This document shows positions 24,962-25,026 of a DNA stretch of 39,612 nt, one piece after another. Each line of letters starts with the position of its first letter. The stretch's first letter is position 1. Source of the stretch: a virus (taxonomy: Duplodnaviria; Heunggongvirae; Uroviricota; Caudoviricetes); IMG/VR virus record IMGVR_UViG_3300022758_000169; one strand, written 5' to 3'. The position numbers and the translations under genes were made by a program. The notes below the pieces were generated by a model. The model did no database searches, was not told where the DNA came from, and saw only the letters and a program-made list of their open reading frames with translations.

Positions 24962-25026
24962 TCACCCATAAGGTAACAAAAAATCAAGGATAGTTACCTA
25001 TGAGGTGCATTTTACCTGTTGGGTAA
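24962..25026. promoter_or_regulatory. tripartite operator cluster in the divergent switch region
   Basis: Three sites: TCACCCATAAGGTAA (24962..24976), TTACCTATGAGGTGC (24994..25008), TTACCTGTTGGGTAA (25012..25026). Confidence 0.55.

What the first reader, a model, noticed from the sequence alone, without database searches (positions are those of the whole stretch)
24962..25026. Tripartite operator cluster in the switch region built from a 15-bp TTACC-N5-GGTAA palindrome
Three sites, one perfect and two with single half-site changes, lie between the leftward cro-like gene and the rightward repressor-like gene. This mirrors a lambda OR1-OR3 layout, but the half-site TTACC is not one I can assign to a characterised operator family.
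Basis: partly seen in the sequence, partly recalled or inferred. Interest (0 to 1): 0.7.

Follow-up and report, generated by a model that had tools for sequence, protein, structure and literature searches.

The report
Rep repressor operators of a phiV10-like phage
The three palindromes are real, but they are the immunity operators of an already studied phage repressor family (epsilon15/SPC32H Rep), and are only three of about sixteen copies that mark nearly every promoter of this phiV10-like phage.

Summary
Sites at 24962-24976 (1 mismatch), 24994-25008 (2 mismatches in one half-site) and 25012-25026 (perfect) lie between a leftward cro-like gene and the rightward repressor gene. TTACC-N5-GGTAA occurs 12 times perfectly in the window against 0.01 expected.

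The window is a phiV10/epsilon15-like podophage (Uetakevirus). Its repressor is a full-length homologue of Salmonella phage SPC32H Rep (PDB 5D50, E=4.5e-42), and an SPC32H-type antirepressor, Ant, is also encoded. The epsilon15 RefSeq record already annotates the same 17-bp palindrome (ATTACC-N5-GGTAAT) as repressor-binding sites.

The motif is not confined to the switch. It sits at almost every transcription unit, always in intergenic DNA. Half-sites are 94% invariant across relatives, against 20% for the N5 spacer. The three-site layout (30/31 bp, then 17 bp) recurs in 51 of 55 distinct Rep-upstream regions. Elsewhere, operator pairs exactly 62-63 bp apart flank a conserved promoter.

This is a Rep tetramer plus LexA-controlled antirepressor switch, not a lambda CI-type one. 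It is a new member of a known kind and of low-to-moderate interest. In passing: this window alone has 1-bp insertions in the switch (cro frameshift, 32/18 spacing) and a 1-bp deletion in the ant LexA box.

The parts
24962..24976 (.). Operator O_c (cro-proximal), TCACCCATAAGGTAA, 1 mismatch. It overlaps the predicted leftward cro promoter (TTGTTA-17-TATTAT, 24979->24951).
   Evidence: The TCACC variant is conserved in epsilon15, SPC32H and PAT1.
24994..25008 (.). Operator O_b (middle), TTACCTATGAGGTGC, 2 mismatches in one half-site.
   Evidence: A perfect site occupies the same position in epsilon15, SPC32H and Klebsiella phage. The degenerate form is conserved in ZX5, phiV10 and Tyrion.
25012..25026 (.). 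Operator O_a (rep-proximal), TTACCTGTTGGGTAA, perfect. It lies 56 bp upstream of the rep ATG.
25083..25667 (+). rep: 194-aa Rep repressor with an N-terminal DBD, a middle HTH-fold dimerisation domain and a C-terminal tetramerisation/Ant-binding domain.
   Evidence: PDB 5D50_A, E=4.5e-42 over residues 1-190. Pfam HTH_3 at 106-147. Identity to SPC32H Rep is 52% in the DBD, with NLVNRW invariant. Domain plan from PMC9986798.
24694..24925 (-). cro-like gene (phiV10p41 orthologue). In this window it is frameshifted by a 1-bp insertion near 24862.
   Evidence: The intact ZX5 orthologue matches PHROG 35, 'transcriptional repressor', E=5.6e-13.
24624..24638 (.). Operator-like site (1 mismatch) just after the cro terminator (24653-24672), ahead of the gp42-like and replication genes.
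   Evidence: Conserved in ZX5, phiV10, Tyrion and Klebsiella phage.
25724..25738 (.). Distal operator of the 62-bp pair at the rightward early (recET-side) promoter, downstream of the rep terminator (25688-25707).
25758..25786 (+). Predicted sigma-70 promoter TTGACA-17-AATTAT, enclosed by the operator pair. The CTATTGAC -35 block is invariant in 5 lineages.
25786..25800 (.). Proximal operator of the 62-bp pair. It abuts the -10 and covers the transcription start region.
22660..22674 (.). Proximal operator of a second 62-bp pair. It overlaps the -10/start region and the ribosome-binding site of the DUF1064 gene (22312..22656, - strand).
22722..22736 (.). Distal operator of the second 62-bp pair, after the replication-gene terminator.
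19968..20000 (.). Adjacent operator pair (1 mismatch and perfect, 18 bp apart) between a terminator and the terS start.
   Evidence: Conserved in all relatives.
16823..16837 (.). Single operator upstream of the head/structural gene operon.
   Evidence: The orthologous site is annotated as repressor-binding in epsilon15 (2931-2947).
31872..31886 (.). Operator-like site (conserved 1 mismatch, GGTAT, which creates TATACT) 43 bp upstream of the integrase gene.
37467..37481 (.). Operator in the divergent region between the tail-fibre gene and ant. It fills the spacer after TTGCAA (on the - strand, towards the tail fibre).
   Evidence: The orthologous site is annotated in epsilon15 (19895-19911).
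37519..37538 (.). LexA-box-like sequence upstream of ant. Relatives have a canonical CTGT-N8-ACAG; this window has lost one base (CTG-N9-CAG).
37557..37814 (+). ant: an 85-aa SPC32H-type antirepressor.
   Evidence: PDB 5D50_E, E=8.4e-47, 73/83 identical. PHROG 450.
938..952 (.). Operator in the promoter region of an accessory antirepressor module (P22_AR_N gene 1100..1498).
1524..1538 (.). Operator upstream of ORF 1559..2086.
38586..38600 (.). Operator; an inverted paralogue of the 1524 segment.
38679..38693 (.). Operator; an inverted paralogue of the 938 segment.

Best explanation
The three palindromes are the switch-region operators of the prophage repressor Rep (25083..25667), a member of the epsilon15/SPC32H Rep family. 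The N-terminal HTH domains of Rep read the half-site TTACC, with the two half-sites one helical turn apart. Because Rep acts as a tetramer carrying two DNA-binding dimers, one tetramer is expected to occupy two palindromes at once. In the switch these would be the tight pair O_a/O_b (17 bp centre to centre; 18 in this window), with O_c 30-31 bp further on, over the cro promoter. Together they shut off leftward lytic transcription and probably autoregulate rep. The same operator is repeated at nearly every other transcription unit: terS, head genes, tail fibre, integrase, the recET-side early operon, replication genes, the DUF1064 operon and the accessory antirepressor modules. A single repressor therefore silences the whole prophage directly. 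At two promoters the operators form a pair exactly 62-63 bp apart that encloses the -35 and -10, which suggests a Rep tetramer bridges the promoter in a small loop. Induction is not by RecA-mediated cleavage. SOS inactivation of LexA derepresses ant (37557..37814), and Ant takes the Rep tetramer apart and releases it from all operators.

Shown here: the sites, their enrichment, conservation and geometry, and the homology of Rep and Ant.
Taken from the literature on the homologue: tetramer binding to palindromic sites, and Ant-mediated disassembly.
Inferred: that Rep binds these exact sites, which promoter each site controls, and bridging or looping.
For: Enrichment: there are 12 perfect sites against 0.01 expected.

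Intergenic location: every perfect site is intergenic in the annotated relatives, 11/11 in epsilon15 (6.6% non-coding, p~1e-13) and 10/10 in ZX5 (p~2e-11).

Conservation: half-site columns are invariant in 74/79 cases, against 8/40 for the N5 spacer and 396/757 for other columns.

Prior annotation: the identical 17-mer is annotated 'protein_bind: repressor' in epsilon15.

Protein homology: Rep matches PDB 5D50_A over its full length and Ant matches 5D50_E. A canonical LexA box lies upstream of ant in the relatives.

Co-conservation: the motif and the synteny of its sites are kept across three Rep lineages that are 42-45% identical but share an invariant NLVNRW helix.

Switch layout: the three-site arrangement occurs in 51 of 55 distinct Rep-upstream regions.

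Pair spacing: 62-63 bp in about 110 distinct sequence variants from Rep-encoding loci. These pairs enclose an invariant CTATTGAC -35 and a -10.

Promoter overlap: predicted promoters overlap the sites.

Function: ZX5 ORF21, 98.5% identical to this Rep, represses lytic genes when overexpressed (PMC9782041). SPC32H Rep binds palindromic DNA as a tetramer and is disassembled by tetrameric Ant (PMC9638917, PMC9986798).
Against: No binding experiment for these exact sites could be consulted. The primary SPC32H papers and the epsilon15 genome paper are not in the held library, and the epsilon15 annotation may be purely computational.

The epsilon15 record does not annotate the three switch-region sites themselves.

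The cro-like protein could bind the same sites, alone or as well.

I could not identify a convincing rep promoter that escapes O_a, so the autoregulation logic is unclear.

The same palindrome also serves unrelated XRE repressors in other phages, so the motif alone does not identify the binder.

Looping across 62 bp is inferred from geometry only.
Confidence: 0.85

Rival explanations
1. This is a self-contained lambda-type OR1-OR3 switch. A dimeric CI-like repressor binds three local operators cooperatively, Cro competes for the same sites, and induction is by repressor autocleavage.
For: There are three palindromes of about 17 bp between divergent repressor and cro-like genes. Predicted leftward promoters overlap O_a and O_c.
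Against: Rep has no Peptidase_S24 domain. Its homologue works as a tetramer and is inactivated by an antirepressor (PMC9638917), and that antirepressor is present here. The operators are dispersed over the whole genome. The spacing is 17 plus 30-31 bp, unlike lambda's roughly even spacing (the lambda spacing is from my own knowledge).
Confidence: 0.04
2. The palindromes are mainly the binding sites of the cro-like protein or another phage regulator (PerC-like, AlpA-like or gp49-like), and Rep recognises something else.
For: The cro-like protein belongs to a PHROG annotated as transcriptional repressor and is well conserved across the genus. In classical switches Cro shares the repressor's operators (my own knowledge). 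No direct Rep-DNA data for these sites were accessible.
Against: No other over-represented palindrome was seen next to rep. The motif is retained together with the invariant Rep recognition helix across three Rep lineages. A Pseudomonas cI that shares only the Rep-type DBD keeps the TTACC half-site. The epsilon15 curators assigned the sites to the repressor. Silencing late, lysis-side and integrase promoters fits a prophage repressor better than a Cro.
Confidence: 0.07
3. The sites are a shared promoter-architecture element or a host-factor site, for example an activator site or an MqsA-like ACCT-N3-AGGT target, rather than repressor operators.
For: Five of the 12 perfect sites contain ACCT-N3-AGGT, which resembles the MqsA palindrome (from memory). 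The 3' half-site often overlaps -10-like TAAT sequences.
Against: The sites occupy different positions relative to the promoter: in the spacer, over +1, and 20 bp upstream of the -35. The conserved positions are TTACC/GGTAA, not ACCT/AGGT, and positions 6 and 10 vary. Positions inside the core promoter or over +1 are repressive.
Confidence: 0.03
4. The match is a chance or compositional artefact of AT-rich intergenic DNA.
For: The intergenic DNA is AT-rich. On statistics alone the 2-mismatch middle site is not distinguishable from background.
Against: 12 perfect copies against 0.01 expected. Half-sites are conserved while the spacer drifts. The layout is fixed in 51 of 55 relatives.
Confidence: 0.01

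Closest known systems
Rep-Ant lysis-lysogeny switch of Salmonella phages SPC32H, SPN1S and epsilon15 (Uetakevirus); PDB 5D50 and 5D4Z; epsilon15 RefSeq 'protein_bind: repressor' sites
   Same: Rep is homologous over its full length (E=4.5e-42; the DBD is 52% identical and the recognition helix is invariant). Ant is homologous (88% identical), with a LexA box upstream in the relatives. The ATTACC-N5-GGTAAT palindrome is identical and sits at syntenic loci. The rep / three operators / cro-like layout is the same, as are the 62-bp promoter-flanking pairs.
   Different: This is a different Rep lineage (42% overall identity, middle domain 33%). The middle operator is degenerate here but perfect in epsilon15 and SPC32H. 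Extra Bro/KilAC-type and P22_AR_N-type antirepressor modules carry their own operators. Operators have not been annotated or published for the phiV10-like group (they are absent from the phiV10 and ZX5 records and from PMC9782041). This window also has unique 1-bp indels in the switch and in the LexA box.
Bacteriophage lambda OR1-OR2-OR3 / CI / Cro
   Same: Three operators of about 17 bp with twofold symmetry lie between divergently transcribed repressor and cro-like genes and overlap the divergent promoters. Operators also lie on the far side of the repressor gene, in an OL-like position.
   Different: The repressor is unrelated in architecture: it has no S24 autocleavage domain and is a tetramer formed through a p53-like C-terminal domain. 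Induction is by antirepressor. The half-site and spacing differ (TTACC-N5-GGTAA, against lambda's CACC-N3-GGTG-type core). The operators are dispersed to late, lysis-side, integrase and accessory promoters. No Q- or N-type antitermination cascade was recognised from the annotations examined.
Dispersed-operator prophage repressors: P1 C1, and mycobacteriophage L5 gp71 'stoperators'
   Same: One immunity repressor has many copies of its site across the genome and directly controls many transcription units.
   Different: Those sites are asymmetric, and for L5 they often lie within transcribed regions where they act as stops. Here the sites are palindromic, strictly intergenic and positioned at promoters. 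The comparison rests on my own knowledge and on the abstract of PMC1934351.
Rco of Bacillus plasmid pLS20 (TetDloop tetramer that loops DNA)
   Same: An N-terminal HTH DBD is combined with a p53-like tetramerisation domain. PMC9986798 identified SPC32H Rep as a structural analogue. Rco loops DNA between operators 75 bp apart, which is comparable with the 62-63 bp pairs here.
   Different: Rco recognises arrays of direct repeats and needs several tetramers. Looping by Rep has not been demonstrated.
LexA-controlled antirepressor induction (coliphage 186 Tum; Gifsy and Fels-2 antirepressors)
   Same: The repressor cannot be cleaved and is inactivated by a small antirepressor that is controlled by SOS and LexA.
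   Different: The antirepressors are not homologous. According to PMC9638917, SPC32H Ant breaks the Rep tetramer rather than competing at the DNA-binding surface.

Membership tests
epsilon15/SPC32H-type Rep operator set | The adjacent repressor is homologous to SPC32H Rep over all three domains (DBD, MDD, CAD/TetDloop). | tested here: met
   5D50_A, E=4.5e-42, residues 1-190 aligned to 2-197; identity is 52% in the DBD, 33% in the MDD and 49% in the CAD.
epsilon15/SPC32H-type Rep operator set | The operator is the 17-bp palindrome ATTACC-N5-GGTAAT, as annotated in epsilon15. | tested here: met
   the 7 annotated epsilon15 sites are this sequence; the window has the same consensus.
epsilon15/SPC32H-type Rep operator set | Three sites lie between rep and the divergent cro-like gene, in the layout O_c, 30/31 bp, O_b, 17 bp, O_a, about 55 bp, rep ATG. 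| tested here: met
   51 of 55 distinct Rep-upstream regions have this layout. The window has the same order, but with 32/18/56 bp because of three 1-bp insertions.
epsilon15/SPC32H-type Rep operator set | The Rep DNA-recognition helix is conserved. | tested here: met
   N36-L-V-N-R-W41 is invariant in the phiV10-like, Tyrion, epsilon15/SPC32H and Klebsiella lineages.
epsilon15/SPC32H-type Rep operator set | The cognate small antirepressor Ant is under LexA control. | tested here: inconclusive
   The Ant homologue is present. All four relatives aligned have a canonical LexA box, but the window's copy has a 1-bp deletion that gives CTG-N9-CAG.
epsilon15/SPC32H-type Rep operator set | The aromatic residues of the tetramer interface (SPC32H Phe187 and Phe190) are retained. 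| tested here: met
   they align with Tyr181 and Phe184 in the window's Rep. The residue roles are from PMC9986798.
epsilon15/SPC32H-type Rep operator set | Rep binds these sites directly and specifically. | not testable with these tools
   This needs EMSA, footprinting or ChIP. The primary SPC32H papers could not be read.
Lambda-type CI/Cro OR switch | The repressor has a C-terminal S24 (LexA-like) autocleavage and dimerisation domain. | tested here: not met
   One search finds no Peptidase_S24 match. One search shows the C-terminus matches the SPC32H Rep tetramerisation domain.
Lambda-type CI/Cro OR switch | Three operators are roughly evenly spaced and bound by pairwise-cooperative dimers. 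| tested here: not met
   the spacing is 17 and 30-31 bp. The homologue binds as a tetramer (PMC9638917).
Lambda-type CI/Cro OR switch | Cro binds the same operators with the reverse order of affinity. | not testable with these tools
   The cro-like protein matches only PHROG 35. No binding data are available.

The most novel reading that the evidence does not exclude
The operator geometry may reflect a repression mechanism not yet described for this family. One Rep tetramer would always engage two palindromes. These are either a tight 17-18 bp pair (switch, terS) or a pair fixed at 62-63 bp that encloses the whole core promoter in a micro-loop (the recET-side and DUF1064 promoters). About 16 such sites would let one protein silence every transcription unit directly. 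Because so many dispersed sites would have to change together, operator specificity would be effectively frozen. That would explain why three Rep lineages only 42-45% identical, in phages of Escherichia, Enterobacter, Klebsiella and Salmonella, all keep the same helix and the same operator. It predicts cross-immunity at the repressor level across the genus.
Probability: 0.35. Interest if true: 0.5.

Novelty: new member of a known kind. Interest (0 to 1): 0.27.

Why it matters
The practical gain is better annotation. The phiV10-like phages include O157 typing phages and prophages of pathogenic E. coli, and their records and the ZX5 study do not define operators. The full operator set can now be transferred from the epsilon15/SPC32H family.

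For the biology, the conserved geometry gives concrete, testable predictions for how the tetrameric Rep represses. That geometry is the three-site 30/31 + 17 layout and the 62-63 bp promoter-flanking pairs. A 2023 structural paper says the mechanism of repression "has not been extensively characterized".

The finding also shows that a whole temperate-phage genus shares one operator specificity, unlike the many immunity types of lambdoid phages. None of this overturns current understanding.

Tried and rejected
1. Primary literature. I tried to read the epsilon15 genome paper and both SPC32H papers by DOI, PMC id and PubMed id. None is held, so I could not confirm which operator sequences were defined experimentally. 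A full-text search for TTACC/GGTAA with operator and phage found nothing relevant.

2. LexA box. An exact CTGT-N8-ACAG search found none near ant. A looser scan and an alignment showed the box is present but one base short.

3. Other Ant candidate. ORF 17386..17856 has no PDB match, so I rejected it as Ant. The real Ant is 37557..37814.

4. rep promoter. The consensus scan found only leftward promoters in the switch. Candidates picked by eye (TTTACC-17-TTAAAT; TAATAT) all overlap O_a, so this is unresolved.

5. Homopolymer sequencing error as the explanation for all the window's indels. This is only partly satisfactory. Eight of 12 indels are in runs of 3 or more, but 4 of the 6 insertions cluster within 175 bp of the switch, out of 26 kb aligned.

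6. TTACC as a signature unique to the Rep DBD. Rejected: about 98 viral loci carry paired palindromes beside ordinary XRE/HTH_3 repressors.

7. Not run. I judged structure prediction, fold search and the large protein-database searches unnecessary once the PDB homologues were found.

Full report
**1. What is in the sequence**

- 24962-24976, TCACCCATAAGGTAA, one mismatch.
- 24994-25008, TTACCTATGAGGTGC, two mismatches, both in the right half-site.
- 25012-25026, TTACCTGTTGGGTAA, perfect.

They lie between a 194-aa repressor gene on the + strand (25083..25667) and a cro-like gene on the - strand (24694..24925). The motif is far above chance: 12 perfect copies in the 39.6-kb window against 0.01 expected from dinucleotide-preserving shuffles. 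That result also changes the picture, because nine of the twelve perfect copies lie outside the switch region. Flanking bases show the conserved unit is a 17-bp palindrome, A-TTACC-N5-GGTAA-T. Its central base is A or T in 96% of cases, and the rest of the spacer is otherwise free.

**2. What the element is**

The window is a phiV10/epsilon15-like temperate podophage (genus Uetakevirus). It is 97-98% identical to phages HEMP4, vB_EcoP_ZX5, TL-2011b and phiV10 across the switch region.

The repressor is a full-length homologue of Salmonella phage SPC32H Rep (PDB 5D50 chain A, E=4.5e-42). The window also encodes a close homologue of the SPC32H antirepressor Ant (5D50 chain E, E=8.4e-47, 73/83 identical) at 37557..37814.

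Secondary sources give the following for SPC32H Rep:
- It has an N-terminal DNA-binding domain, a middle dimerisation domain and a C-terminal p53-like tetramerisation/Ant-binding domain.
- It binds palindromic sites as a tetramer, and each DNA-binding pair draws its domains from different dimers.
- Tetrameric Ant takes it apart (PMC9638917, PMC9986798).

The ZX5 protein, 98.5% identical to the window's Rep, was shown by overexpression to control the lytic-lysogenic decision. That paper did not define any operator (PMC9782041).

**3. The motif has already been assigned**

The epsilon15 RefSeq record carries seven 'protein_bind, repressor, lysogeny' features. Every one is ATTACC-N5-GGTAAT or a 16-nt version of it.

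I could not read the epsilon15 genome paper or the two SPC32H papers, because none is held. I therefore cannot say whether binding to this exact sequence has been shown experimentally. The epsilon15 record does not annotate the three switch-region sites themselves, nor its sites at 24704 and 35969.

**4. Evidence that these are functional protein-binding sites**

- All perfect sites are intergenic in the annotated relatives: 11/11 in epsilon15, where 6.6% of the genome is non-coding (p~1e-13), and 10/10 in ZX5 (p~2e-11).
- In alignments of four intergenic regions across five lineages, half-site columns are invariant in 74/79 cases. The figures are 8/40 for the N5 spacer and 396/757 for all other columns. 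Conserved half-sites with a freely changing spacer are what base-specific contacts at the half-sites would produce.
- The sites occupy syntenic positions in ten genomes from Escherichia, Enterobacter, Klebsiella and Salmonella phages.
- Those genomes represent three Rep lineages only 42-45% identical overall. The DBD is the best-conserved domain (52%), and the segment N36-L-V-N-R-W41 is invariant.
- A Pseudomonas phage cI shares only the Rep-type N-terminal domain (39% identical, with an S24 C-terminus). It has four TTACC-N4-GGTAA sites flanking its gene, so the half-site appears to travel with this DBD type.

**5. Anatomy of the operator set**

In the window, sites with at most one mismatch, plus the 2-mismatch middle switch site, mark almost every transcription unit:

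| Location | Sites |
|---|---|
| Switch | 24962, 24994, 25012 |
| After the cro terminator, ahead of the replication genes | 24624 |
| Rightward early (recET-side) promoter, downstream of the rep terminator | 25724, 25786 |
| DUF1064 operon | 22660, 22722 |
| terS | 19968, 19986 |
| Head operon | 16823 |
| Tail fibre / ant divergent region | 37467 |
| Integrase | 31872 |
| Accessory antirepressor modules | 938, 1524, 38586, 38679 |

Three geometries recur.

- **The three-site switch.** The order is O_c, then 30/31 bp, O_b, 17 bp, O_a, and about 55 bp to the rep ATG. This layout is found in 51 of 55 distinct Rep-upstream regions drawn from the reference genomes and IMG/VR contigs.
- **Tight pairs** 17-18 bp apart, in the switch and at terS.
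- **Pairs 62 bp apart** that enclose a promoter. In both such loci the distal operator is followed by an invariant CTATTGAC/T (-35), a 17-bp spacer and a -10 that abuts the proximal operator. Among viral contigs that encode a Rep-type DBD, distinct pair sequences have spacing 62 (91-93 variants) or 63 (17 variants), with minor classes at 74-76 and 17.

A tetramer with two DNA-binding dimers fits all three geometries. The 62-bp pairs suggest the promoter is bridged or looped. That agrees with the observation that Rep's tetramerisation domain resembles that of the looping repressor Rco (PMC9986798), but looping is inferred here, not shown.

**6. Induction circuit**

In ZX5, phiV10, Tyrion and epsilon15, a canonical LexA box (CTGT-N8-ACAG) lies immediately upstream of ant. 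This fits the published model, which I recall from the Kim & Ryu 2013 abstract and which is echoed in bioRxiv 10.1101/2025.11.27.690993: LexA controls Ant, and Ant inactivates an uncleavable Rep. Rep has no S24 domain. The Pfam HTH_3 match (residues 106-147) falls in what the literature calls the dimerisation domain. The true DBD gives only a sub-threshold YdaS-type match.

**7. Comparison with lambda**

The resemblance is one of topology only: three palindromes of about 17 bp between divergent repressor and cro-like genes, overlapping leftward promoters. The differences are these:
- The repressor architecture.
- Tetrameric binding.
- Uneven spacing of the sites.
- Induction by an antirepressor.
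- Direct control of late, integrase and accessory promoters.

I could not find a rep promoter that escapes O_a, so the logic of rep maintenance transcription remains open.

**8. How specific the motif is**

Scans of IMG/VR also recovered about 98 loci with paired TTACC-N5-GGTAA but no Rep-type DBD. The eight I inspected came from contigs spanning a wide GC range. In six of them an ordinary XRE/HTH_3 repressor or a Cro-like gene lies beside the pair. In several, the palindrome exactly fills the 17-bp spacer of a consensus promoter (TTGACA-t-TTACC-N5-GGTAA-t-TATAAT). The palindrome is therefore a recurrent operator design among XRE-type switches. The motif alone does not identify the binding protein. 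Here the identification rests on Rep homology, synteny and co-conservation.

**9. Peculiarities of this window**

Against ZX5 there are only 12 indels in 26 kb. Four 1-bp insertions cluster at 24862, 24983, 25013 and 25036. Their effects are:
- The first frameshifts the cro-like gene. HEMP4 has the intact version.
- The next two lengthen the O_c-O_b and O_b-O_a distances, making this the only one of 55 regions with 32/18 spacing.
- The fourth lengthens the O_a-to-rep distance.

A further 1-bp deletion damages the ant LexA box. These may be homopolymer sequencing errors. Their concentration in the lysis-lysogeny circuitry is nonetheless striking and unexplained.

The window's two ends are also inverted copies of each other (1-365 against 39612-39248, 97.5% identical). 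Both break at the same point inside a Bro/KilAC-type antirepressor gene. This suggests a contig that ends inside an inverted repeat, or a misassembly.

**10. Verdict**

- **Observation:** confirmed.
- **Interpretation:** partly supported. The sites are switch operators, but of a known family and not lambda-like in mechanism.
- **Novelty:** a new member of a known kind, namely the phiV10-like lineage of the epsilon15/SPC32H Rep-Ant system. Its operators had not been annotated or described in the phiV10 and ZX5 records or in the ZX5 paper.
- **Interest:** low to moderate. The most interesting residue is the strictly conserved pair geometry and the genus-wide identical operator, which give testable predictions about how the Rep tetramer represses.

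Noticed in passing
window 24862, 24983, 25013, 25036: Four 1-bp insertions relative to ZX5 and phiV10 cluster within 175 bp of the switch, out of only 12 indels in 26 kb aligned. One frameshifts the cro-like gene, which is intact in HEMP4, ZX5 and phiV10. The other three add 1 bp to the O_c-O_b, O_b-O_a and O_a-rep distances. This makes the window the only one of 55 distinct Rep-upstream regions with 32/18 spacing instead of 30-31/17. Whether this is sequencing error or real switch mutations is unresolved.
   Followed up: partly
window 37519-37538: The LexA box upstream of ant has lost one base (CTG-N9-CAG). ZX5, phiV10, Tyrion and epsilon15 all have a canonical CTGT-N8-ACAG. 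In SPC32H/SPC32N a single-base change in this box reportedly makes Ant constitutive and the phage lytic (recalled from the Kim & Ryu 2013 abstract; the paper could not be read).
   Followed up: partly
window 1-365 and 39248-39612; also 30270-30568: The two ends of the window are inverted copies of each other (97.5% identical). Both stop at the same homologous point inside a Bro/KilAC-type antirepressor gene (ZX5 position 1121, HEMP4 position 33846). A third partial copy lies next to the integrase gene. This looks like a contig that ends inside an inverted repeat, or a misassembly.
   Followed up: partly
window 693-993 vs 38638-38938; 1495-1571 vs 38553-38629: Two diverged (81-91% identical), inverted copies of an operator-bearing promoter module flank the window ends. 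They give mirrored accessory antirepressor operons. A P22_AR_N-domain gene at 1100..1498 is absent from ZX5 and phiV10.
   Followed up: partly
L007 (epsilon15 NC_004775) 33341-33402, 24704-24718, 35969-35983: The epsilon15 RefSeq record annotates 7 repressor-binding sites. It omits the three switch-region sites and two other perfect palindromes, so the public annotation of the operator set is incomplete.
   Followed up: yes
L010 (Pseudomonas phage PseuP_224) 2422, 2461, 3297, 3323: A cI repressor that shares only the Rep-type N-terminal domain (39% identical, helix NYISR, S24 C-terminus) is flanked on both sides by TTACC-N4-GGTAA palindromes. The half-site is the same but the spacer is one base shorter.
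   Followed up: partly
IMG/VR loci such as L079, L180, L027, L112, L136, L137: Unrelated, Firmicutes-type phage contigs use the same TTACC-N5-GGTAA palindrome, often filling the 17-bp spacer of a consensus TTGACA/TATAAT promoter. In six of the eight loci examined an ordinary XRE/HTH_3 repressor or a Cro-like gene lies beside the pair. The palindrome appears to be a recurrent operator design.
   Followed up: partly
IMG/VR loci L061 7251-7390, L038 7182-7230: There are 18-bp tandem arrays of the palindrome (for example TTACCGTTTTGGTAAccg repeated four or more times). They look more like iterons or partition/packaging sites than operators.
   Followed up: no
window 17351-17366: A perfect LexA-box core (CTGTAAACCAGTACAG) lies 20 bp upstream of ORF 17386..17856, a phiV10p03-like gene of unknown function with no PDB or Pfam match. 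It may be a second SOS-controlled gene.
   Followed up: no
window 22660-22674 and 19968-19982: The promoter-proximal operators of the DUF1064 gene and of terS overlap the Shine-Dalgarno sequence and end 1-4 bp before the start codon. Bound Rep would therefore sit on the very 5' end of these transcription units.
   Followed up: partly
window 31872-31886: The operator-like site upstream of int always carries the same single mismatch (GGTAT) in all relatives. The mismatch creates a TATACT -10-like hexamer. The site sits inside a larger inverted repeat (ACGGTA...TACCGT), which epsilon15 annotates as overlapping an integrase-binding site and an RNase III site.
   Followed up: no
window 25083-25667 (Rep residues 106-147 vs 1-72): The significant Pfam HTH_3 match falls in the middle domain, which the literature describes as a dimerisation domain. 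The actual DNA-binding domain gives only a sub-threshold YdaS-type hit. Automated annotation therefore points to the wrong DNA-binding region.
   Followed up: partly
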